Below are positions 8,215 to 58,908 of a stretch of 64,000 nucleotides of DNA, one piece after another (within the stretch, counting starts at the first letter, position 1; every line of letters begins with the position of its first letter). The stretch is taken from the NCBI GenBank assembly GCA_965226555.1, contig CBDDDG010000021.1, positions 224,001 to 288,000 of the forward strand, given 5' to 3'. Source of the DNA: Salinispira sp. (GTDB lineage Bacteria; Spirochaetota; Spirochaetia; DSM-27196; Salinispiraceae). Position numbers and translations under genes: made by a program. The notes under the pieces are model-generated. The model was not told the DNA's origin. It did not search any database and saw only the letters and a list, made by a program, of their open reading frames with translations.

Positions 8215-10699
8215 GTGCTGTGGGGTTTTCTCATTATGATGACAGTGTTCATCACGGCCTGCCCAATGCCGGAACCGGAACCAATGTCGGAACCAGTGCC
8301 CATGGACATGGATACATCTCCTTTAATAGGCGTGTGGACCGCGGATAATGAGTTTCATACCATAGAATTCACCGCGACAACGTACATTAAGGTGGATTCA
8401 CTAGATGTGTTTTCGGATTTGACCTGTGATTACACGGATAACGGGAACTCAATTACGCTCAGTAATTGTATGGGAAAAGAAGCGGAAAACCTTAATGGGG
8501 CAACGGTAGAGTATACCATTGATGGAGATACGTTAACATTGAATGGCACTGTCTATACCCGGCAGAATTCAGATGTACCTGAACCAACCGTGCCGGGCAC
8601 CATGGCTGCTCCAACCCTTAAAGTGGGGAATAAGCAACTAACGGTTAACTGGACTCCGCCGAAAAATAACGGCGGCAGCCGAATTACCGCGTATGAACTT
8701 CGCCATAGCGATGACGGCGGGAGCAGCTGGTCGGAGGATTAATACGAAATCCGACGCGCCAGCCACAGAGACCATTGCCATCACTGGCCTGACAAACGGC
8801 ACCACATACGTCGTACAGGCGCGCGCACGGAACAGCGCTGGCGCAGGCGAATGGTCGGGATCAAGCGAGGGAGCAACCCCGATTTCAACAGTTCCCACGG
8901 AGCCGAATGGGTTCGTGCTTTCAGTGGATATGCAAACAATTACCGCAACATGGACTGCGCCGACCGATACTGGCGACAGCGTCATTACTCACTATGAACT
9001 ACAACATCGCGAAGTTGGAACAAGCGCGTGGGAACCTGTCATTGCCACCGCCGATGCCGACACCCTGACCCTCCTCATCCCCAACCTGACAAAAGGTGCC
9101 GAATACGAGGTGCAGGTCTACGCTGTCAATACAGATGGCAATGGTAACCCAACGGAAATTAAGAAAATAACAATTCCCGCTACCGTTCCCAGCGCGCCGA
9201 ATGCTCCCACGCTCACAGGCGGAAACACCGAACTTGTGGTAGCATGGACAGTGCCCAACAACGGCGGCAGCCCCATTACCTCATATAAGGTGCAGTATAG
9301 TTCAGACGGCGGAACTAACTGGACGCCGGCCCCGGGCAACCCTATCAGTGCCACGAGCTACACCATCCCGAGCTTGATGAACGGTACCACCTACGATGTG
9401 CAGGTGCGCGCCGTCAACACGGTGGGCGATGGCGGCTGGTCGGTATCTGCCACTCTAACCCTTCCGACCAAACCTGCCGCGCTGACAGCTCCCACACTTG
9501 CAGGAGGAAATGCGCGGCTTGTTGTTGAATGGACAGCGCCCGATGACGGCGGTAGCGCCATTACCGAATATAAGGTGCAGTATAGTTCAGACGGCGAAAG
9601 CACTTGGACGGCGGTCACCGATACTATACATGGTACAACCACAAGCTCCACCATTACGGGACTGACAAACGGTACCAGCTACGTGGTACAGGTACGCGCC
9701 GCCAACATGCAGGGCGATGGCGACTGGTCTGCATCCGCAACAGCAATGCTGCCGGTTCCGGTTTTTGCAACGCAGGTTCCTTCTGGTACGGCAGCGTCCG
9801 TTGTTCTTTCGACTGCTATCGATACCCAGATTGTCACTGAGAATCTCACTGTTTCTTTGGCTCCGGTTACTTCAGCGGCCTCAACGGTTACCCTGCCGAC
9901 AGTTACTGCGAGTACCGGACTTATTACGGTTACCGCAACGACAACGGCAGGAACATATGTGGTATCCGGCGCAGACGGAGGGGGAATTGAACGGTTTTCC
10001 GAACATTTCCATGTTACCGTGAGTCCTGCTGATAACGCTGCACTGGACACACAGGTAACTGCGGGGATAACAGCCTGGGGCAATACTGCCGATCTCAACT
10101 ACATTGTTACCGCGGCAGTAACGAATATGTCCGAAGTGTTCAAGGATGCAAGCACATTCAATGGCGATATCTCTGACTGGGATGTCAGTAAGGTAACGGA
10201 TATGTCGGACATGTTCAGGGGCGCAAACGTATTTAATCAGAATATCTCTGGCTGGACTGTCAGCTCGGTAACGGATATGTCGGGGATGTTCAGGGACGCA
10301 CACGCATTCAATCAGGATCTTACGAACTGGACTGTCAGCTCGGTAACGAATATGAACAATATGTTCATTTATGCACGCACATTCAATGGCGATATCTCGA
10401 ACTGGGATACCGGCGCGGTAACAACTATGGCCCAGATGTTCAATGGTGCAAGCGTATTCAATAACGATATCTCCGGTTGGAATGTCAGTAAGGTAGAGAA
10501 TATGTACTGGATGTTCTATCAAGCAAGCGGATTCAGTCAAAATCTTAACGACTGGGCCTGGAATAACTCGGTTAGTCCCGCTGTTCCATGGAAGACTAGT
10601 GATGGTGGTAAATGGAATAATGGCACATATATCGGAGTCAAAGGAGCTATGTTTACTGGTTCCGGCGTGACAGGTGATCTGATTCCGTCATGGTATTAG
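8215..10699 (+). pseudogene. FN3 + BspA (DUF285) lipoprotein, frameshifted at ~8738
   Basis: Lipobox ITAC; ORFs 8215-8742 and 8693-10699 join inside an FN3 domain (paralogue reads SWSEDITT); FNGDISxWDVSxVTxM repeats. Confidence 0.8.
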
Positions 10700-10787: not shown

Positions 10788-11860
10788 CGATTGCTCGCCC
10801 ATGCGACTGTTGCTGAGACGGTGGGCTCAGGTCAATATCCCAAAATAATAGAAACTTTTTGAAAAACTTTCTCATATTCACCGTTTATATTTTACCCGTC
10901 TATATGGTATGAGCAAAAAATATATCGACACAGAGCATACCAGCCCCCCATTCCCGACTCCCCGAAAAAAATTCACAAATTCTTTCAAATTCTTTTCAAA
11001 AACATAGTTAAAAATGACTTTTCTCCCGTTATAGATATAGAGGGGAGAATTCACCATGGGACCATGTCGCCATGGGAACTCCCCTATTAAGAAAAAAACG
11101 TTCAGAAAAAACATTCAGGAGGATTGTATGATCGATTTCAAAGAAAAACCCGCCCCCGTTCCCTACGACCAAGGCTACCGATCCCTGCTGTTCCAACCCG
11201 CAATAATGCTCCAATTTCTTCAACGCTTTGTTGGAGGCGCATGGACAAAAAAGCTGCGCCGTGAAGATATTACCATCGAAAACGGTACCTTTTTCATTGA
11301 CCATGCGAAAACACGAATGGCCGACATTGTCTGCAAAATAACGCAGAAGGATCACACGGGAGATGTTGCTATCTATGTGCTCCTTGAGCATCAGTCTGGA
11401 GTGGACAAAGACATGCCCATCCGCATGTCGGAATATACGAATCTTCTCTATCGGAACATTCACCGCTCCGGCGCAATTCCCGATGACTGCGAATTGGTAT
11501 TTCTGCCCATTGTATTCTATAATGGAACGAGAAAATGGAAGGTGCCCGGGAATGTCAGAAAGCAACGGAAGCGGAAATTCCCGCAGTATCTTGCTCCTTT
11601 TCCCTACGATCTTATTAGCGAGAACGATTATTCTGCGGAACAGCTACAGCAGCGGGGAAGAATGTTTGCGGCTGTTATGTACCTTGATCTGTACTCGAAA
11701 AATCTGCTGAATACGGATTGGGACATTCGGAAGGTAGAGAAAGCGATAGCAGAAATGCTGAATGAGGAATCGCTGGAGCTGATAAAGGAATTTATCGGCG
11801 TGGTAGATTCTATGTTTGGAATTGTTATAGACTTCGATACGTTAATGAACCAATTAGAAG

Positions 11861-11986
11861 CAAAGTTTTGCCAGAGGCAAAACTTTCTATAAAATTGGAG
11901 AATGCTAAGCACAAAGAAAGCATTCCAAATTTGAAACTTTTGCTACTGGAAATTGTGCTTGCACAATTTTCCAATGCAAAAGTTTC
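11861..11986 (+). mobile_element. 126-bp three-hairpin MITE-like element
   Basis: Absent from paralogues at 37332 and 23210; termini CAAAGTTTTGC/GCAAAAGTTTC; flanks AGAAG/AGAAA. Confidence 0.85.
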
Positions 11987-12026
11987 AGAAAGAACAAAAG
12001 AACCGAGAGGTAAGGAGGTAGCAAAA

Positions 12027-12275
12027 ATGTTCAGAATGAATGCGGAAACATTCAGAGCGCGCATTGCGGAGATGGGTCGGCAGGAAGGACTTCAGACAGG
12101 ACTGCGAACAGGTCGGCAGGAAGGACTACAGACAGGTCGCGCGGAGGGGCATATTGAGGAGCGGAGAAAAAACGCCCGCAGTATGTTTTCCATAGGACTT
12201 TCAGCAGATGACGTTCGGAAGGTTACCGGGCTGAGCGATGAGGAAATGCGGACAGTGCGGAACGGATCGCAGTAA
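12027..12275 (+). CDS. intragenic small Rpn protein (RpnS-type), 82 aa
   Basis: TAAGGAGGT 7 nt upstream of in-frame ATG. Confidence 0.7.
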   Translation: MFRMNAETFRARIAEMGRQEGLQTGLRTGRQEGLQTGRAEGHIEERRKNARSMFSIGLSADDVRKVTGLSDEEMRTVRNGSQ

Positions 12276-15122: not shown

Positions 15123-15440
15123 ATGAATACAATAGATATTATAGGACAGTTTCAGCAGCAGGACATTCCTTCTCTGCGGCAGAACAGCTCACCGGATAAG
15201 CTGGAAGAGGTTGCTCAGGAATTTGAATCGATCTTTGTGAAGATGATGTTAGATACCATGCTCGCAAGCCGAAACCAGGAAAACAACCTGACCTATGGCG
15301 GAATGGCAGAAGATATTTTTGAAGATATGCTGTATACTGAATATTCCCGTCAAATTGCAAAAAATGGCGATTTTGGTATTGCCGAAATGATCATCAATCA
15401 ATTTTCATCCGATCGCCATACATCCAACCGCCATATATAG
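15123..15440 (+). CDS. flgJ: rod-binding protein, short FlgJ without muramidase
   Basis: LEEVAQEFESIFVKMML..GGMAEDIFEDMLY..GIAEMI. Confidence 0.85.
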   Translation: MNTIDIIGQFQQQDIPSLRQNSSPDKLEEVAQEFESIFVKMMLDTMLASRNQENNLTYGGMAEDIFEDMLYTEYSRQIAKNGDFGIAEMIINQFSSDRHTSNRHI

Positions 15441-15570
15441 GATGCATTTCAGAACTGCGATATGTATACATAAGTATACACATTTTCCCTCTGTTGCCCA
15501 GCGTGAAATTCCTAACTTTATAAATTGTTACAATAAAACGATATACATCTGCGCTTTGGCTTTAGCATAA

Positions 15571-15588
15571 TTGGCATGATTTTTGCTT
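15571..15588 (+). promoter_or_regulatory. sigma54 -24/-12 promoter
   Basis: TTGGCATGATTTTTGCTT, exact GG-N10-GC spacing. Confidence 0.85.
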
Positions 15589-15620
15589 ATTGTTACTTGC
15601 AGAGGGTAGAGAGTAGGGCA

Positions 15621-15738
15621 TGCAAAACCTTCCAGTAATATCAAAATAGGAGAATGCTATGCACACAGAAAGCATTACGGATCGGAAACTTTTGCATTGG
15701 AAAATTGTGCTTGCACAATTTCCAGTAGCAAAAGTCTC
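15621..15738 (+). mobile_element. MITE-like element copy overlapping the rpoS RBS and 5' end
   Basis: Aligns with reverse complement of 49671-49795 (aaaataggagaatgcta.gcaca.agaaagcatt...gatcggaaacttttgcattggaaa...). Confidence 0.85.
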
Positions 15739-16564
15739 TCATAAATTTACTGAAGATATTTTTTCTTCATATTACGATGAAATAAAAACCTTTGATCTCT
15801 TAAGCGCAGAGGATGAGGCTGTACTTTCAAAGAAAATTCTAAAAGGCGATGAGAAGGCAAAAAAAATACTTATAGAGGCCAACCTCCGGCTTGTTGTAAA
15901 AATTGCTCATGAATATCTGAATTCCGGACTTCCCGTACTGGATCTTATTCAGGAGGGAAATTTTGGTCTCATAACCGCATCGGAAAAATTCGATTACCGA
16001 AAAAATGTCCGCTTCAGCACCTATGCTTCTTGGTGGATAAAGCAGACTATTTCACGGTCAATTGCAAACAAGAAACGTGTTATTCGAATTCCGTACCGCA
16101 AGGAAGATGCGCTCCGAAAGATAAAAGCTGTTTTTAACGTTCTTTCGCAGGATGAAGGCAGTAATCCCACATATGAGGATGTGGCACGTTACCTGCATAT
16201 GCCATATTCAGAACTTATTGAAATTTTGAATGTGAGCGAGAATGTAACCAGTCTCGACAGGCAGGTATCATCAGAACAGGTTAATATCTACGATTTATAC
16301 GAAGATTATTCCTATGCTCCGAACAGGGAACTTCTTCAGGAAAGCGCAGAAAAAAATCTTCGTGATCTTGTTGATAGACTCGACAGCAAGGAACGCTTTG
16401 TCATTATCAAACATTACGGCCTGTGGGAAAACGATAAGCTCACATTTAAGCAGCTCAGCAGAATACTTGAAATAAGTCCAGAGACTATTCGCCAAATTGA
16501 AATTCGGGCGCTCAAAAAACTTCGTCAGCAGGCAAAAATACCTGAGGATTATGCCATAGCATGA
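15659..16564 (+). CDS. rpoS: RpoS-type group 2 sigma factor
   Basis: [39 protein letters not shown]; no region 1.1; Borrelia-like position after flgJ with sigma54 promoter. Confidence 0.8.
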
Positions 16565-19075: not shown

Positions 19076-19202
19076 GAAATTTTTGCAAAATATAAAACTT
19101 TCTATAATATTAGGAGAATGCTAAGCACATAGAAAGCATTCCGAACCTGAAATTTTTACTACTGGAAATTGTATAAGCACAATTTTCCAATACAAAAGTT
19201 TC
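19076..19202 (+). mobile_element. degenerate full-length MITE-like copy in rho leader
   Basis: Colinear with 11861-11986. Confidence 0.8.
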
Positions 19203-24990: not shown

Positions 24991-25116
24991 GAAACTTTTG
25001 CATTGGAAAATTGCGCTTGCGCAATTTCCAGTAGCCAAAGTTTCCGATCTGGAATGCTTTCTTTGTGCTTAGCATTCTCCTATTTTATAGAAAGTTTTGC
25101 ATTTTGCAAAACTTTG
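24991..25116 (-). mobile_element. 126-bp MITE-like element with perfect 5-bp TSD
   Basis: TATAA at 24986-24990 and 25117-25121. Confidence 0.9.
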
Positions 25117-34423: not shown

Positions 34424-36256
34424 CTAAAACCATGACGGCGTATTACCGGCCAAGCCGGAAAGAAAAAACGTAGTTGTTTTGCTTCCTATATATGTGCCAT
34501 CATCCCATTTACCACCACCATCAGTAGTCTTCCATGTAACAGGGGGGGCAACCGAGTTATCCCAGGCCCAGTTTTCAAGATTTTGATTAAATGCGTTTGC
34601 GCCAAAGAACACAGTGTTCATATTCGTTACCGAACTGACATCCCAGAGTGAGATATCACCATTGAATGCAGATGCACTCAGGAACATACCTTCCATATTC
34701 GTTACCGAACTGACATCCCAGCCGGAGATATCGCCATTGAATACAGTTGTTCCAGAGAACATAATGGACATATCCGTTACCGAACTGACATCCCAGAGTG
34801 AGACATCGCCATTGAATGTTGACCAAACACTGAAAATCCCATTCATATTCGTTACTGCCGCGGTAATAATGTAGTTGAGATCGGCAGTATCTCCCCAGTT
34901 TGATATCCCCGCATTTACCGCTGTTTTCAGTTCAGCGTTAGTTGTTGGACTCTCAGTAACAGAGAAATATTCGGCAAAGAGTATGTCTCCGCTTTCTGTT
35001 TCACCATATATCACATATATTCCTGCCGTCGTACCTGCGGTAACCGTAACAATTCCGGTACTCGCATTAACTGTCGGCAGGGTGACCGTTCCGGGCGGAG
35101 TTACGGTGGTTACCTTCAGGTCTCCTCCATCATCAACCGTGAGAGTGCCCGGTTCTACCGTGGTCAAAGAAACACTGAGGTTCAGGTTCTCATTGGCAAT
35201 ACCGGCAGTATTAATGGCATTATCGGCAAGTAAAATGTTTATAGAATTTTCCTCGCCCGAAGGAATCTCTGTCGGAGGAAATGATGGCAGCGGTTCCGTT
35301 GCGGGGGCAGACCATGGTCCAATGCCGACCGCGTTGATGGCACGCGCATGCACTTGGTAGAGAGCACCGTTTGTCAGGCCGGTAATGGTGTGGTCTGTTC
35401 CGGTGATGCCGGAAGCATCTGTCCATGCGGTTATGCCGACTTCGCGATATATCAGCTCATACCCGGTAATTTCGCTGCCGTTATTTTCCGGTGCAGACCA
35501 TCTCGCAACGATCCGCCCAGTGCCCGCATAAAGGGTTGGGGCAACCGGCGCGTCAGGAACAGCGGCAAGGGCAGGGAGAGTTGAAACGGCAGATTCCGAC
35601 CATGCGCCAATTCCTCCGTCCGCGTTGACCGCTCGCGCCTGTACCTCATAGACACTGCCGTTTGTCAGGTCGCTAATGACATGGCTTGTACCGTCAATGC
35701 CTTCGGTAATAATTTCCCAGCTTCCGCTGCCGTATTCCCTATAACGCAGGTGGTATGCGCTAATGTCGCTGCCGCCGGTATCAGTCGGCGCCGTCCATGT
35801 AACGGTCAGTTGACCGTCTCCTGCAACAAGGGTGGGAGCAGCCAGCGCGACAGGGGGCGCAGTTGGCGGCGCAATAGGTGTTGCCGTGGCAGACGCCGAC
35901 CACGTACCCGCACCCCCCGCGTTGACGGCGCGCACCTGCACAGCATACCTGAGACCGTTTGTCAGCTCGGTAATGGTGTGGCTTGTGCCGGTAATACCGG
36001 TGTTAATCTCCATCCAGATGCCGCTGTCAAATTCACCATAACGCAGATTATACGCGGTAATGGCGTTGCCCCCATCCTTGTCGTTTACTTCATTCCATAT
36101 AGCGGCGAGCTCAGCCCATGAGGCTGTAAGCTGTCCGTCTCCCGCTATGAGGGCTGGCGCAAACATGGCAGGGGGAGCATCCGGCATTGGGCATCCGCTG
36201 AGTACCAGCGCTGCAACAATTACGGTAAGTATCAATCTGAGAATCATATACATCAT
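34424..36256 (-). CDS. 3xFN3 + BspA (DUF285) lipoprotein
   Basis: Lipobox LSGC; FN3 W..Y..Y.VQVRAVN; FNGDISxWDVSSVTNM repeats. Confidence 0.88.
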   Translation of the reverse strand: MMYMILRLILTVIVAALVLSGCPMPDAPPAMFAPALIAGDGQLTASWAELAAIWNEVNDKDGGNAITAYNLRYGEFDSGIWMEINTGITGTSHTITELTNGLRYAVQVRAVNAGGAGTWSASATATPIAPPTAPPVALAAPTLVAGDGQLTVTWTAPTDTGGSDISAYHLRYREYGSGSWEIITEGIDGTSHVISDLTNGSVYEVQARAVNADGGIGAWSESAVSTLPALAAVPDAPVAPTLYAGTGRIVARWSAPENNGSEITGYELIYREVGITAWTDASGITGTDHTITGLTNGALYQVHARAINAVGIGPWSAPATEPLPSFPPTEIPSGEENSINILLADNAINTAGIANENLNLSVSLTTVEPGTLTVDDGGDLKVTTVTPPGTVTLPTVNASTGIVTVTAGTTAGIYVIYGETESGDILFAEYFSVTESPTTNAELKTAVNAGISNWGDTADLNYIITAAVTNMNGIFSVWSTFNGDVSLWDVSSVTDMSIMFSGTTVFNGDISGWDVSSVTNMEGMFLSASAFNGDISLWDVSSVTNMNTVFFGANAFNQNLENWAWDNSVAPPVTWKTTDGGGKWDDGTYIGSKTTTFFLSGLAGNTPSWF

Positions 36257-44239: not shown

Positions 44240-44366
44240 GAAACTTTTGCATTGGAAAATTGTGCAAGCACAATTTTCCAGTAGCAAAAGTTTCAAATTT
44301 GGAATGCTTTCTTTGTGCTTGGCATTCTCCAATTTTATAGAAAGTTTTGCCTCTGGCAAAACTTTG
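44240..44366 (-). mobile_element. MITE-like element at the same Rpn site as 11861
   Basis: Near-identical sequence and flanks. Confidence 0.88.
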
Positions 44367-45928: not shown

Positions 45929-47337
45929 TTATGGAATAGTAATCGTATTAGACGATTCCGACCACTCACTATTACCCGCCGCGTTAATAGCGCGTATACC
46001 TATTTTGTATGTGTCGCCTGAGGTATTACCGGGTTGATATGCGCTAAAGGACTGACTGGGGAGGGGATAACTAGATACTATCCAGTCTCCATCATTTATG
46101 CTATATCGCAGTTGATACGCGGTAATGGCACTGCCTCCGTTGTCGGTCGGCAGTGTCCATGTAATATCAAATGCTCCTTGAATACCCGCAGTTAATGTAA
46201 GTATTGGAGGGTCGGGTTTGTTGGGAACAAGGTCAGCAGGAGTTACCGAGGCAGCAGGAGTCGACTTCAGCCACGCGCCATCGCCCGCAGTGTTCTGTGC
46301 GCGAACCCATACTTCCACATTATACGCGGTGCCGTTTGCCAGCGCGGTACTGTCTTTCAATGCCGTAATGCGGTAGCTTGTATTACTTGTATCAGTAGTG
46401 GTTTCGGTCTGCCAGTCGCCCTCTACCAGAGCTGCTGCGGATACGCGATATTGCAGGTCATACCCGGTAATGGCGCTGCCGCCGTTGTTAGTCGGCGCTG
46501 TCCATGCGGCTGTAATAGATTGGTGCACTGGTACGAGCGTCAGGCCGGTTGGAACGGCAGGAGGCCCAATAGGGGTTGCGGTGCCAGTCGCTGGGTTACC
46601 ATTGCCCTGACCATTGACAGCGTAGACCCGCACCTCGTACGCGGTGCCGTTTGTCAGGCCCGTGATGGTATGGCTGGTGTTTGTGTCAGGGGAAATCGGC
46701 ATTGTCCATGTTCCGCCGACTTCGCGATGGTGTAGTTTATACCCCGTGATATCAGGATAGTCTCCCGCCTCAGGCGCAGCCCATGTTGCGGTAATTTGCA
46801 TATTTCCCGCTGTGAGCGTAAACGCAGTCGGTTCCGTGGGAACGCCGCCAATAGGTATTGCTTCCATGCTCGATTCCGACCATTCGCCTGCGCCCGCGCT
46901 GTTCCGTGCGCGCACCTGCGCGACGTAGGGGGTGCCGTTTGTCAGCCCCCCAATGGCGGCGCTTACGGCTGGCGCGTCGGCTGTAGTAATATCCTCCGAC
47001 CAGCTGCTCCCGTCGTCCGCGCTATGGCGAAGTTCATACGCGGTAATGTCGCTGCCGCCGGTTTTTTCCGGCGGAGTCCAGTTAACCCTTAGTTGACTAT
47101 TCCCCGCTACAAGGCTTGGAGCAGCCATGGTGCCCGGCAGCATTGGATCGGGTTCCGGGGTTGGTTCGGGTTCCGGCATTGGTTCAGTCATTGGATCGGT
47201 GTCAGGGCTTGGTTCCGGCATTGGACATCCGGCAAGTAATGCGATGAGAACCACGCTCATTATAATCAATACAGAGGACGTCCCCCCCCCCCCCCCCCCC
47301 ATAACTTTCGTAGTGGATTAAAAAGATTAAACATCAT
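45929..47337 (-). pseudogene. 4xFN3 lipoprotein, out of frame at a G19 tract
   Basis: AAGGAG-N7-ATG at 47337 is 1 nt out of frame with the LAGC lipobox ORF. Confidence 0.75.
47282..47300 (-). repeat. poly-G19 tract in signal-peptide coding region
   Basis: 19 consecutive C on + strand. Confidence 0.95.
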
Positions 47338-47525
47338 TTTAATACTCCTTTCTATAAAAAATATTTGTCGGACAAGGTCCGCTTATGTTTCATTGCAGAT
47401 ACGCGCTGAAACCTTATACAAAGGTTATCACAAAGTATCGGAAATATCAACTGTCTACATGAATTTTATGGCAATTCCGCCCACTATCGGCGCTCGTAGG
47501 CAGCGGCCCACTGCGGGCAATGAAA

Positions 47526-49427
47526 TTAATACCATGATGGATAATTCGGTTGCTTCCCAGGAGTAATGTCATCCGTATCCACATCCAAGCCGGAACTCCC
47601 AAACATAGAATGTTTATATCCGATATATGTGCCATCATCCCATTTACCACCACCATCAGTAGTCTTCCATGTAACAGGGGGATTAACCGAGTTATTCCAT
47701 GCCCACTCTTCAAGATCTTGATTGAATGCGCTCGCTCCCTCGAACATGGAGGACATATCCTCTACTGAACTGACGTTCCAGCCGGAGATGTCGGCATTGA
47801 ATGCTGTTGCCGCATTGAACATATAGTTCATATCCTCTACCTTACTGACATCCCAGTCGGAGATATCGGCGGTGAATGTTGCCGCTCCATCGAACATTGA
47901 TGCCATATCCTCTACCGAACTGACATTCCAGTTGGAAATGTCGGCATTGAATGTGCGCGCCTCATTGAACATATAGTTCATATCCGCTACCTTACTGACA
48001 TTCCAGTTGGAAATATCGCCATTGAATGCTGTTGCTCCCTCGAACATCGATTCCATATTCTCTACCGAACTGACGTTCCAGCTTGAGATAGCGCGATTGA
48101 ATGCAGTTGCTTCAACGAACATGTAGGACATATCCTTTACCGCTCCCGTATTCCAGTTGGAAATATCGACATTGAATGCTTCTGCTCTATAGAACATATG
48201 GTTCATATCTTCTACCGAACTGACATCCCATGCAGAGATATTGCTATTGAATGCGATTGCAGAGAGGAACATGTTGGACATATCCTTTACCGCTCTCGTG
48301 TCCCATGCGGAGATATCGCCATTGAATGATCTTGCAGCAAAGAACATTTGGGACATATTCGTTACCGCTGTAGTATTCCAGAGCGAAATGTCGCCATTGA
48401 ATGCCTCCTCATCCTCGAAAACCTCGGACATATCGGTTACTGCTGCGGTAATTATGTAGTTGAGATCGGCAGTTCTGCTCCAGTTTCCGAAGTGCCCTAT
48501 TGCCTCAGTTACCGCTGTTTTCAGCTCGGTCTTCGTTTGCGGATTCAGGGTAACATAGAAAAATTCGGCAAAGATGATGTCGCCGCTTTCGTTTTCTCCG
48601 TATACCAGATATGTTCCTGCCGTTGTATCTGCGGCAACCGTAATAATTCCGGTGATCGGGTCAATTGTCGGAATGCTGACCCCTGTAGGCGGCGGATTCA
48701 GTGGTGGCGGAGGGGTGACCGTTGTTTCTCCCGATGTTTCATTGACTATGATGGTGCCCGATTCCACGGTGATTACAGAAATGCGTGGATTCTCATTGGC
48801 GATGATGCTACTCACATCAACCGAAAGATGTACAGAGGCTGCCGTACCCGCGGGGGTCCGTGTCGCAAAAACCAGCGGCTGCGCTGTGGCGGATGATGAC
48901 CATTCGCCATTGCCCTGCGCGTTTACGGCGCGCGCCTGTACGCGGTAGCTGTTGCCGTTTGCGAGTCCGGTTATGGTGTGGTCTGTGGCTGGCGCGGCGA
49001 CTTCGGCTGGCGCGGCGACTTCGGCTGGCGCTGCGGCATCGGCTGGCGCGGCGACTTCGGCTGGCGCGGCGACTTCGGCTGGCGCGGCGACTTCAATAAT
49101 TTTCCAGTTGGTGCCGCCGTCCCCGCTATAGCGAAGGTGATACGCGGTAATTGCGCTGCCGCCGTTATCTTCCGGCGCAGTCCATGCCGCAAATAGCCGC
49201 CCAGTGCCCGCATAAAGGGTTGGAGGAGCCATGGTACCCGGCGGGCTTGGTTCGGGCAGCTGAGCGGGTTCTGGCAGCGGCGCAGGTTCGGGCAGCGGTA
49301 CGGGTTCGGGCAATGGCGCGGGTTCGGGCAGTGGTACGGGTTCGGGCAGCGGACATCCGGCAAACACTGTAATAACTATTGAGCAGAATAGGAAAAGGGC
49401 TCCCTTCCGCATACATGTAACAAGCAT
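47526..49427 (-). CDS. FN3 + long BspA (DUF285) lipoprotein
   Basis: FAGC lipobox; PEPxPL and APAEVA repeats; ~10 25-aa BspA repeats. Confidence 0.88.
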   Translation of the reverse strand: MLVTCMRKGALFLFCSIVITVFAGCPLPEPVPLPEPAPLPEPVPLPEPAPLPEPAQLPEPSPPGTMAPPTLYAGTGRLFAAWTAPEDNGGSAITAYHLRYSGDGGTNWKIIEVAAPAEVAAPAEVAAPADAAAPAEVAAPAEVAAPATDHTITGLANGNSYRVQARAVNAQGNGEWSSSATAQPLVFATRTPAGTAASVHLSVDVSSIIANENPRISVITVESGTIIVNETSGETTVTPPPPLNPPPTGVSIPTIDPITGIITVAADTTAGTYLVYGENESGDIIFAEFFYVTLNPQTKTELKTAVTEAIGHFGNWSRTADLNYIITAAVTDMSEVFEDEEAFNGDISLWNTTAVTNMSQMFFAARSFNGDISAWDTRAVKDMSNMFLSAIAFNSNISAWDVSSVEDMNHMFYRAEAFNVDISNWNTGAVKDMSYMFVEATAFNRAISSWNVSSVENMESMFEGATAFNGDISNWNVSKVADMNYMFNEARTFNADISNWNVSSVEDMASMFDGAATFTADISDWDVSKVEDMNYMFNAATAFNADISGWNVSSVEDMSSMFEGASAFNQDLEEWAWNNSVNPPVTWKTTDGGGKWDDGTYIGYKHSMFGSSGLDVDTDDITPGKQPNYPSWY

Positions 49428-49452: not shown

Positions 49453-49540
49453 CAAAGTTTTGCTCCTGAAAATTGTGCTCCGCACAATTTTCAGGAGGGT
49501 TCTATTATCTCAGAAAATTGTGCTTAGCATTCTCCTATAG
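49453..49540. repeat. rearranged partial MITE-like copy
   Basis: CAAAGTTTTGC terminus, aaaattgtgc/gcacaatttt hairpin, tgtgcttagcattctcctat. Confidence 0.65.
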
Positions 49541-49670: not shown

Positions 49671-49795
49671 GAAACTTTTGCATTGGAAAATTGCGCAAGC
49701 ACAATTTCCAATGCAAAAGTTTCCGATCTGGAATGCTTTCTTTGTGCTTAGCATTCTCCTATTTTATAGAAAGTTTTGCATTTTGCAAAACTTTC
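49671..49795 (-). mobile_element. 125-bp MITE-like element whose TSD is the acs RBS
   Basis: TGGAG at 49666-49670 and 49796-49800. Confidence 0.88.
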
Positions 49796-55890: not shown

Positions 55891-57473
55891 ATGAAAATTA
55901 CATCATACAGTTGGGGGGGGTAACCCTTTTTATTCTCTGCTCAATATTTATTGTACTGATGGCGGGATGTCCGATGCCGGATGCGCCGCCTACAATGTCT
56001 GCGCCAGCCCTTGCTGCGGGAGACAGACAGCTCACTGCATCGTGGGCTGAGCTCGCCGCTATATGGAATGAGGTAAACAAAAAGGATGGCAAAAACACCA
56101 TTACCTCGTACAAATTACGCTATGGTGAATTTGGCAGTGGAATCTGGACGGAGATTAACACCGGTATTACCACAAGCCATACCATTACCGGGCTGACAAA
56201 CGGCGTCAATTATGCCGTTCAGGTACGTGCCGTCAACGCGGGGGGTGGGGGTGCGTGGTCAGCATCATCCACGGCAACACCTATTGCGCCGCCAACTGCG
56301 CCCCCTACCCCGCCGGGTACAATGGCTGCTCCAACCTTTGAAGTGGGGAATGGGTTGCTCATTGCCACATGGACTGCGCCAACCGATAACGGCGGCAGCC
56401 CCATTACCGGGTATGAGCTGCAATATCGCGCAGATGACATGGAGCCATGGATGTTCACGAGCTCCGGCATTACCTGCGCACGTAGCGAGGGGCAGGCAGA
56501 AGTCTGTCAATTTTCCTTCTCATTTTACCCTCCGTATATAGGCCACACCATTACGACAGACGGCGCCAGCTACCAACTGCGGGTACGCGCCGTCAACGCG
56601 CAGGGCAATGGCGAATGGTCTGCAACAGCAACAACAACGCTCCCTATTGTTACGGCAAAGCTTCCCGAGGGGATGGCAGCGGTCGCAATTCTTTCGGCTG
56701 AGGTTAGTACCATTATTGCCACCAATGATCTCAGCGTTTCTTTGACCACGGTAGAGTCTGGCACGTACGCGGTCGATGAATCGGGAGACATTACGATAAC
56801 CCCCGCAACTGCGCCCAATGGGGTCAACCCGCCGATTGTCGATTCGAGTACCGGACTTATTACGGTTGCCGCAGATACAACAGCAGGAACATATCTGGTA
56901 TACGGCAGTGACACCGGAAGCACAGACATATTGTTTGCTGAGTATTTTTACGTTACCGTGAGTCCTCAAGATAGTGATGCTAATAATGATGGCGGTAATG
57001 GTGAACTGAAAATGGCGGTAACTGAGGGAATATCAACCTATGGCAATACTGGCAATTTCAACTACATTATTACCACCGCAGTAAGGGATATGTCCTCTGT
57101 CTTCGCTAACAACACCGCATTCAATGGCGATGTCTCCGGCTGGGATGTCAGCACGGTAACGACTATGTACAAAATGTTCGAGGGAGCAAGCGTATTCAAT
57201 GGCGATGTCTCCGGCTGGGATGTCAGCTCGGTAACGACTATGTACAAAATGTTCCATAGCGCGGTAGTATTCAATCGCGATATTTCCGGCTGGGATGTCA
57301 GCACGGTAATGAATACAGTCATTATGTTTGGTAATGCAACCGCATTCGTTCAAGATCTTGAGGAGTGGGGGGAGCATCTTACGCTTGATGGCAGTGGCAA
57401 ATATACCGGAGCTAAAAGCACTATGTTTGGTAATTCCGGCGTAACAGGTAGTCTGGTGCCGTCATGGTTTTAG
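55891..57473 (+). pseudogene. 2xFN3 + BspA lipoprotein, out of frame at a G8 tract (55913-55920)
   Basis: AAGGAGG-N7-ATG reads MKITSYSWGG-stop; G9 restores the MAGC lipobox frame. Confidence 0.75.
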
Positions 57474-58282: not shown

Positions 58283-58406
58283 AAAATTTTGCTCCGCAAA
58301 ATTTTCAAATGAGGATTCTCTCATCTATACTCTTGATTCTCTCACGGTATAGAAAGTTTTGCCTTGGAAAATTGTGCAAGCACAATTTCCAGTAGCAAAA
58401 CTTTTG
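58283..58406. mobile_element. 124-bp variant MITE-like element
   Basis: Splits F-I-I-E-H-K-S; flanks TACTG/TATTG. Confidence 0.75.
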
Positions 58407-58908
58407 TATTGAGCATAAAAGCTACCAGCATAAACATGCTCTCACACAGATTGATGACTATCAATATGCCCTCAGAAACAGCAATGTGTACAATGAAAAT
58501 GATGCTATCTATATACTTCTGTTCTACCATGGAAAAAAGGAATGGAACCTCCCACTCACATTTTACAGTTCACATGGAAATGCTGCTTCCGAATCCATGA
58601 CTGAAGGCACAGTGGATGTCAGGGTGAAAGTGTCGTACATTGTGCGCGATCTGAGGAGAATGACAAAGAAGCAGTTGGCATTGCGCTCCGATGAAAAACG
58701 ATATACATCGACTGCATTGTGGTATATAATGCGAGACAATGAGATGGACGCTGAGGGGCTGAAAGAAATTGCGCAGCTCCTGAACGGTCTGTCATCACAA
58801 GACTTTGCTGATCTGGCAGAGAGTGTGCTAGGCTATCTGAAAGATTTGGGACTGTATGAGCAGTTTGAGAAAATTGACAGGAAACTATATCCTGAAGGAG
58901 AAAACAGT

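What the first reader, a model, noticed from the sequence alone, without database searches (positions are those of the whole stretch)
15621..15738. A repeat element supplies the RBS, start codon and N-terminus of the RpoS-type sigma factor
Seen: 15621-15738 is a copy of the palindromic element. The element's AGGAG is the gene's RBS. One change (gaatgctAAGcac to gaatgctATGcac) creates the start codon, and [27 protein letters not shown] is translated element. No other in-frame ATG precedes region 1.2. Inference: the element has been exapted as the translation-initiation region of a global regulator, and its hairpins could gate translation. This resembles Rickettsia palindromic elements but creates the start itself.
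Basis: partly seen in the sequence, partly recalled or inferred. Interest (0 to 1): 0.85.

Follow-up and report, generated by a model that had tools for sequence, protein, structure and literature searches.

The report
Transposon remnant restarts spirochaete rpoS

Summary
15643-15738 is a truncated copy of a lineage-restricted MITE (468 HMM copies, 11-bp terminal repeats, 5-bp target duplication); its likely mobiliser is a resident IS5-family element. It lies inside the 5' end of a true spirochaete rpoS orthologue (flgJ, sigma-54 promoter, then sigma gene), at or behind the start position of 75 orthologues. It supplies AGGAG, ATG and 26 residues. ATG occurs in 5 of 195 copies, together with AGGAG only here; no other ATG, GTG or TTG follows in host sequence until residue 175. 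A related population (protein P0001, run X5) keeps this start, lacks the upstream ATG at 15620 and has a shorter hairpin, in frame; the core shows purifying selection (about 0.23, few sites). Translation is inferred, not measured. Best read as damage and compensation, once in this genome. MITE-supplied starts are in print (MITEAba12, REP2, MIRU), and this scan noted the same kind in other genomes.

The parts
15123..15440 (+). flgJ-like gene (rod-binding domain) upstream, as in the Borrelia flgJ-rpoS order
   Evidence: PF10135; flgJ upstream of the orthologue in 28 of 29 loci; PMC1976401 passages
15572..15586 (+). sigma-54 (-24/-12) promoter motif, GG at 15573-74 and GC at 15585-86
   Evidence: same motif in 75 of 80 orthologous loci; closer to consensus in X3/X5 (15577 T>C)
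15602..15606 (+). GAGGG, likely the orphaned native Shine-Dalgarno site; no ATG/GTG/TTG at the proper spacing behind it
   Evidence: position +16 to +20 from the -12 box, orthologue starts at median +23; pairing -6.3 kcal/mol; inference
15620..15649 (+). 9-codon upstream ORF in frame with the gene, ended by a TAG inside the element that overlaps the SD; its ATG reads CTG in run X5; 15621-15634 may be the right arm of the element's first hairpin
15643..15738 (+). truncated MITE copy (spacer with hairpin B plus 54-nt hairpin C and right terminal repeat)
15648..15652 (+). element-borne Shine-Dalgarno AGGAG
   Evidence: in 79 of 195 copies; strongest SD pairing of the in-frame candidates, -7.3 kcal/mol
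15659..15661 (+). ATG made from the element's AAG, in the loop of hairpin B
   Evidence: AAG 145, ATG 5 of 195; nearest copies are the AAG master type, 5 differences in 43 nt; same start in P0001
15653..15676 (+). hairpin B, weak (6-bp stem)
   Evidence: -4.3 kcal/mol, z -0.74
15685..15738 (+). hairpin C, strong, coding residues 10-26; 27-nt short form in X5/P0001
   Evidence: -23 kcal/mol, z -5.9
15739..15743 (+). TCATA, likely the right copy of the 5-bp target duplication
   Evidence: fits the T-N3-A target bias; left copy not identifiable; inference
15659..16564 (+). RpoS-type group 2 sigma-70 gene, 301 aa, no internal stop

Best explanation
A 126-bp MITE, likely mobilised by the resident IS5-family transposase, inserted a few codons behind the native start of the sigma-54-driven rpoS gene, and the gene is now likely translated from an ATG that likely arose by one AAG-to-ATG change 6 nt behind the element's own AGGAG. 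Steps: (1) shown: the element is a TIR/5-bp-TSD MITE and lies at or behind the start position of all 75 measured orthologues; (2) inferred: a full insertion (126+5 nt, with a TAG in the downstream frame) cut the native start off from the coding region; weak in-frame TTG/GTG codons inside the element may have kept some translation; (3) shown: the element frame from the AAG codon is open to its end and here runs into host codon S27; (4) inferred: the point change created an optimally spaced start, the left part of the element and the native start decayed, and the new N-terminal tail (26 aa here, 17 aa in the relative) is tolerated because this part of RpoS varies freely among orthologues; (5) shown on few sites: the core has stayed intact and under purifying selection in two related populations. 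The outcome is compensation for damage, not a new control circuit; transcription would still come from the sigma-54 promoter.
For: TSD: exact 5-bp flank duplication in 25 of 93 full copies (shuffle mean 0.98, max 4), 22 of 48 after collapsing shared flanks (19 different targets), and a single target copy at paralogous empty sites for 30 of 39 sites that have them. Partner: 1340-bp IS with ends GAAACCTTTG(C/A)A, exact 5-bp duplication in 4 of 5 copies, IS5-family transposase above cut-off (NF033581, 228.7 bits against 140). Position: orthologue starts lie 11-23 codons (median 17) before the Tyr that is Y38 here; the element ends 11 codons before it; promoter-to-anchor distance is 63-109 nt in 75 loci and 183 nt here. 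No element in 109 orthologous or related loci, 40 relatives or 400 class-level genomes searched. Start: only SD-backed ATG in the frame; no host-coded ATG/GTG/TTG until residue 175. Relative: P0001 (93% identical) begins with the same 12 residues and rejoins at AKVS; the X5 contig reads CTG at 15620, lists no change at the TAG, SD or ATG, and carries the 27-nt short hairpin in frame. Constraint: 9 of 365 coding against 16 of 216 upstream bases differ (Fisher p 0.006); 4 nonsynonymous per 282 sites against 5 synonymous per 81 (ratio about 0.23, binomial p 0.03). RpoN is intact and three strong sigma-54 activator domains are present.
Against: No expression data. The A-to-C at 15620 rests on one contig of depth 4.55 (X3 does not cover it), and one difference in 15637-15694 of that contig is unlisted; that it falls behind the ATG is my inference from the tool's listing rule. 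P0001 and X5 agree at every residue I could compare, so they count as one lineage. The frame-keeping 27-nt change is weak evidence of selection because 27-nt and 54-nt forms are both standard in the family. The gene evolves fast on this lineage (stem branch 0.58 against 0.16 for the sister pair; 10 of 274 core residues differ from P0001), which fits relaxed selection. The order of events and IS5 mobilisation are not observed; whether 15613-15642 is host or element sequence is unresolved.
Confidence: 0.75

Rival explanations
1. The insertion inactivated rpoS or cut its output to near zero; the ATG is a chance change and the gene is a young pseudogene or a dispensable relic in an IS-rich, drifting genome.
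For: ATG arose in 4 other copies without AGGAG, so the change does recur; long branch and 10 of 274 residue changes between close relatives; genome is loaded with IS and MITE copies.
Against: No stop or frameshift in 274 codons in either population while nearby DNA has indels; fewer coding than upstream changes (p 0.006) and a synonymous excess (p 0.03); promoter motif kept; ATG and AGGAG coincide only in the one copy that needs them.
Confidence: 0.12
2. The element's hairpins were co-opted as a regulatory gate (thermometer-like opening, or pairing with RNAs from other copies) on RpoS translation.
For: The last base of the SD abuts the stem of hairpin B and the ATG sits in its loop; hairpin C is strong (z -5.9); about 190 other copies carry the same spacer; RpoS is classically controlled after transcription (own knowledge).
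Against: Hairpin B is no stronger than shuffles; a private C-to-A change removes its closing pair (4 of 239 copies); opening cost 5.6 kcal/mol ranks 25 of 78 natural copies, neither unusually closed nor open; hairpin C starts at +27 and is cut to the short form in the relative.
Confidence: 0.07
3. The gene is translated, but from another start: coupling to or read-through from the upstream ATG at 15620, or the TTG (15692) or GTG (15707) inside the element.
For: ATG 15620 is in frame and its stop overlaps the SD; TTG and GTG are in frame.
Against: 15620 reads CTG in X5 and the GTG is lost with the short hairpin; SD pairing is weaker for TTG/GTG and the nearest SD is 14 nt from 15620; both inner codons lie in the stem of hairpin C.
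Confidence: 0.06

Closest known systems
MITEAba12 5' gene fusions in Acinetobacter (PMC6382973; passages read)
   Same: IS-derived MITE with TIRs shared with a resident IS and a matching target duplication; some copies supply the start codon and first residues (MQQS) of the next gene.
   Different: There the start codon is a standing feature of the element end and gives 4 residues; here the ATG is absent from the consensus, lies 80 nt inside the element, gives 26 residues, and the target duplication is 5 bp, not 9.
Neisseria REP2 and Borrelia IR-A repeats (PMC3184786; passages and section 15 read)
   Same: Hairpin repeats that carry an RBS and ATG directly upstream of genes.
   Different: They have no TIRs and carry promoter, RBS and ATG in every copy; here only 1 of 128 element/5'-frame overlaps has its first SD-backed start inside the element, and the promoter is the host's.
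Mycobacterial MIRUs (passage in PMC12548453)
   Same: Small repeats that land at gene starts and leave the gene translatable.
   Different: MIRUs keep the host start and couple a short ORF to it; here the host start is lost and replaced.
Rickettsia palindromic elements (passages in PMC1166351; PMC3184786)
   Same: Hundreds of 100-150-bp palindromic copies; element sequence ends up as protein.
   Different: RPEs often sit within ORFs (85 of 728 in R. felis); here 1 internal in-frame case and a few near-start cases were found among 469 clusters, and the family has TIRs, a 5-bp TSD and an IS5 partner.
Borrelia burgdorferi RpoN-RpoS cascade (PMC1976401 passages; PMC3037356 abstract start)
   Same: flgJ-rpoS order, -24/-12 promoter just upstream, RpoN and enhancer-binding proteins present.
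   Different: No repeat in the 5' end of the orthologues examined; direct sequence comparison with Borrelia RpoS was not run.

Membership tests
Bacterial MITE | short, non-coding, many copies | tested here: met
   27-, 54- and 126-nt forms; 468 HMM copies
Bacterial MITE | terminal inverted repeats | tested here: met
   11-bp [GC]AAA[CG]TTTTGC ends; the rpoS copy keeps only the right one
Bacterial MITE | target-site duplication | tested here: met
   5 bp; 22 of 48 independent sites exact; empty paralogues hold one copy
Bacterial MITE | autonomous IS with matching ends and TSD in the genome | tested here: met
   IS5-family element, right end 11 of 12 bases like the MITE end, 5-bp TSD in 4 of 5
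Bacterial MITE | mobilisation by that transposase shown | not testable with these tools
   needs a transposition assay
Rickettsia palindromic elements (RPE) | frequent in-frame insertion inside conserved genes | tested here: not met
   1 internal read-through case (at least 40 codons each side) and a few near-start cases among 469 clusters
Rickettsia palindromic elements (RPE) | sequence or profile match to an RPE family | tested here: inconclusive
   no RPE model among Pfam hits or the 25 NCBIfam hits shown of 57; no Rfam match at gathering score
IS200/IS605-derived PATE or REP elements | insertion without target duplication | tested here: not met
   5-bp duplication shown
REP2/IR-A-type start cassettes | RBS plus ATG as a conserved feature of the repeat | tested here: not met
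   ATG at this position in 5 of 195 copies, with AGGAG in 1
Spirochaete RpoS (Borrelia type) | group 2 sigma-70 with regions 1.2-4 and no region 1.1 | tested here: met
   best NCBIfam hit is RpoS but below the proteobacterial cut-off (240 against 379)
Spirochaete RpoS (Borrelia type) | downstream of flgJ with a sigma-54 promoter | tested here: met
Spirochaete RpoS (Borrelia type) | RpoN-dependent transcription and an RpoS regulon | not testable with these tools
   rpoN and activators present; no expression data

The most novel reading that the evidence does not exclude
By taking its initiation region from a MITE present in hundreds of copies, rpoS became wired to the whole family: transcripts that carry the element in antisense, or proteins that bind its hairpins, could pair with or occlude the rpoS start and so add a new, transposon-derived layer of translational control on a global regulator.
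Probability: 0.07. Interest if true: 0.8.

Novelty: new variant of a known kind. Interest (0 to 1): 0.4.

Why it matters
It is a cleanly dated two-step case (disruptive insertion, then a single compensating base change inside the insert) on a global regulator, with an outgroup series, a sister population and a candidate transposase all in hand. It shows that a MITE needs no built-in restart cassette to end up as the start of a conserved gene: a latent RBS and an open frame are enough. It also defines a lineage-restricted IS5-linked MITE family. It does not change what is known in kind: repeats supplying RBS and start codons are in print and recur in this scan.

Tried and rejected
No RNA holder listed: no evidence on expression either way. 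Metagenome scan returned only distant orthologues (55% or less), useful for geometry only. Pattern search of 400 phylum genomes used a rare variant (11 matches even in G000) and is uninformative; replaced by a DNA search (at most 2 candidates scored per genome). Genome-contig scan showed 0 stretches outside withheld records and stopped at 51 of 64 parts. TIR-pair search with the MITE's own ends found no autonomous element; the partner came from the ends of multicopy IS. Empty-site reconstruction across 142 TSD-flanked copies gave 3 candidate insertions in coding frames, none a convincing second start rescue. A regex count of short-ended copies was faulty (0 for both classes) and is not used; one natural short-ended copy is visible (C10:426791). 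Literature searches for a rpoS start re-created in a mobile element listed no such paper; the library lacks most subscription papers, so this is not proof of absence.

Full report
Observation. The window reads AGGAG at 15648-15652 and ATG at 15659, opening a 301-aa ORF with sigma-70 regions 1.2, 2, 3 and 4. BLAST of 15561-15800 against the genome gave 775 hits confined to 15620-15740. An HMM built from 25 full copies found 468 non-overlapping copies covering 1.2% of the 2.98-Mb genome. Among 195 copies aligned over the start region, 145 read AAG where this copy reads ATG, 5 read ATG, 79 have AGGAG, and only this copy has both. Its spacer is closest (5 of 43 differences) to the dominant AAG type, present in 22 identical copies, so the ATG most simply arose in place. 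The copy is truncated on the left.

What the element is. It has 27-, 54- and 126-nt forms with 11-bp terminal inverted repeats. Exact 5-bp flank duplications occur in 25 of 93 full copies against 0.98 in shuffles, in 22 of 48 after collapsing copies that share flanks, with 19 different targets, and 30 of the 39 sites that have paralogous empty sites show one target copy there. It is therefore a MITE. This contradicts earlier scan note e1-3869613 on the same family, which reported a 131-base insert without duplication; 126 plus 5 is 131. A 1340-bp IS in the genome has ends GAAACCTTTG(C/A)A, an exact 5-bp duplication in 4 of 5 two-ended copies and an IS5-family transposase above cut-off; it is the likely mobiliser (inference). 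The MITE was not found in 40 relatives, 400 class-level genomes or 109 orthologous and related loci, and has no Rfam match at gathering score.

What the gene is. flgJ lies upstream in 28 of 29 relative loci, and a -24/-12 motif precedes the gene in 75 of 80 loci (29 from genomes, 51 of the 52 best metagenome loci of 80 fetched; one dropped for a short flank). This is the arrangement described for Borrelia rpoS (PMC1976401, passages). The window keeps the motif at 15572-15586, and the genome has an intact rpoN and three strong activator domains. NCBIfam ranks RpoS first but below the proteobacterial cut-off, so the name rests on synteny and promoter.

Where the insertion fell. Orthologue starts lie a median 23 nt behind the -12 box and 11-23 codons (median 17) before the Tyr that is Y38 here; the element ends 11 codons before it. 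Promoter-to-anchor distance is 63-109 nt in the orthologues and 183 nt here. The element thus sits at or behind the old start, inside the variable N-terminal tail (alignment). A GAGGG at 15602-15606 looks like the orphaned native SD, with no start codon at proper spacing. Whether 15613-15642 is decayed host sequence or the remnant of the first hairpin is open; the 12-of-14 match (chance 0.1-0.4%) favours the element.

Is the new start used? It has the best SD pairing with the genome's own 16S tail among in-frame candidates (-7.3 kcal/mol), and host sequence offers no ATG, GTG or TTG until residue 175, after regions 1.2 and 2. P0001, 93% identical and named Salinispira sp. by its source, begins with the same 12 residues and is 9 residues shorter in the element part. 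A contig of run X5, from another study, spans the region, reads CTG at 15620, lists no change at the TAG, SD or ATG, and has the 27-nt short hairpin. Limits: one contig of depth 4.55; one unlisted difference in 15637-15694; P0001 and X5 are probably one population; and 27-for-54 exchange keeps frame by the family's own geometry. Between the two populations 9 of 365 coding and 16 of 216 upstream bases differ (p 0.006), with 4 nonsynonymous and 5 synonymous changes (ratio about 0.23, p 0.03). Against this, the lineage has a long branch (0.58 against 0.16) and 10 of 274 core residues differ, so selection may be relaxed. No RNA data were available.

Hairpin gating. Hairpin B, whose loop holds the ATG, folds at -4.3 kcal/mol (z -0.74); hairpin C at -23 (z -5.9) but begins at +27, beyond the usual initiation footprint (own knowledge), and is short in the relative. 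The cost of opening -12 to +12 is 5.6 kcal/mol, rank 25 of 78 natural AGGAG copies. Nothing suggests tuning either way.

How general. Of 128 coding-like frames whose 5' part overlaps an element cluster, this is the only one whose first SD-backed ATG or GTG lies inside the element; one internal in-frame insertion was found among 469 clusters. These counts rest on my own ORF and codon-score filter, not on a gene caller. The family is not a restart cassette and not an RPE-like in-frame invader.

Comparison. MITEAba12 supplies the first four residues of neighbouring genes (PMC6382973, passages); REP2 and Borrelia IR-A carry RBS and ATG, and 5' fusions of repeats are reviewed in PMC3184786 (passages and section 15); BOX elements encode start codons (PMC3049150, one passage); MIRUs couple to host starts (PMC12548453, one passage); 85 of 728 RPEs lie in ORFs in R. 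felis (PMC1166351, passages). No supplements were read. Earlier notes of this scan report the same kind of event at nqrC, truB, uvrB, mnmG and a desaturase in other genomes (unchecked). What differs here is that the ATG is not part of the element's design, the tail is long, and the gene is a sigma-54-driven RpoS. Searches listed no paper on such a case.

Verdict. Real and well supported as anatomy; translation from 15659 likely (0.75); hairpin control unsupported (0.07). New variant of a known kind, interest 0.4.

Noticed in passing
L130:77-1416 (G000 C10:404476-405815) and four more copies: 1340-bp IS5-family element with ends like the MITE's and an unusual-looking 5-bp target duplication; likely mobiliser.
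   Followed up: partly
window 11056-12275: YhgA-like (Transposase_31, Rpn-type) gene cut by a full MITE copy at 11862-11986; about 38 paralogues have the empty site, several share the insertion; the small C-terminal ORF keeps its own SD-like site.
   Followed up: partly
L132 (G000 C10:38700-38725, minus strand): 26-nt short MITE form read through in frame inside an MGH1-like glycoside hydrolase gene: the one RPE-like internal case found.
   Followed up: partly
L133 (G000 C10:535745-535799, minus) and G000 C21:196684-196710 (minus): Short forms in frame inside what look like signal peptides, a few codons behind an upstream ATG.
   Followed up: partly
window 15406-15440: In runs X3 and X5 the flgJ 3' end has a 15-nt deletion and its TAG reads GAG, so the C-terminus differs between populations.
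   Followed up: no
window 11862-11986, 19077-19202, 24991-25115, 44240-44365, 49454-49540, 49671-49794, 58354-58408: Seven further MITE copies in the window; one lies just upstream of rho (19225).
   Followed up: partly
G000 C12:152936-153104, C10:562234-562576, C19:23759-23926, C21:294636-294803: A 168-nt MITE variant carries a 42-codon open frame from the out-of-frame ATG of the spacer to the element end; at C12 it runs on into a 768-codon frame.
   Followed up: no
window 34439-36071 and 46090-49370; 8766-10556 and 56170-57369: Long surface-protein-like genes with 75-bp and about 290-bp internal repeats, duplicated within the window.
   Followed up: no
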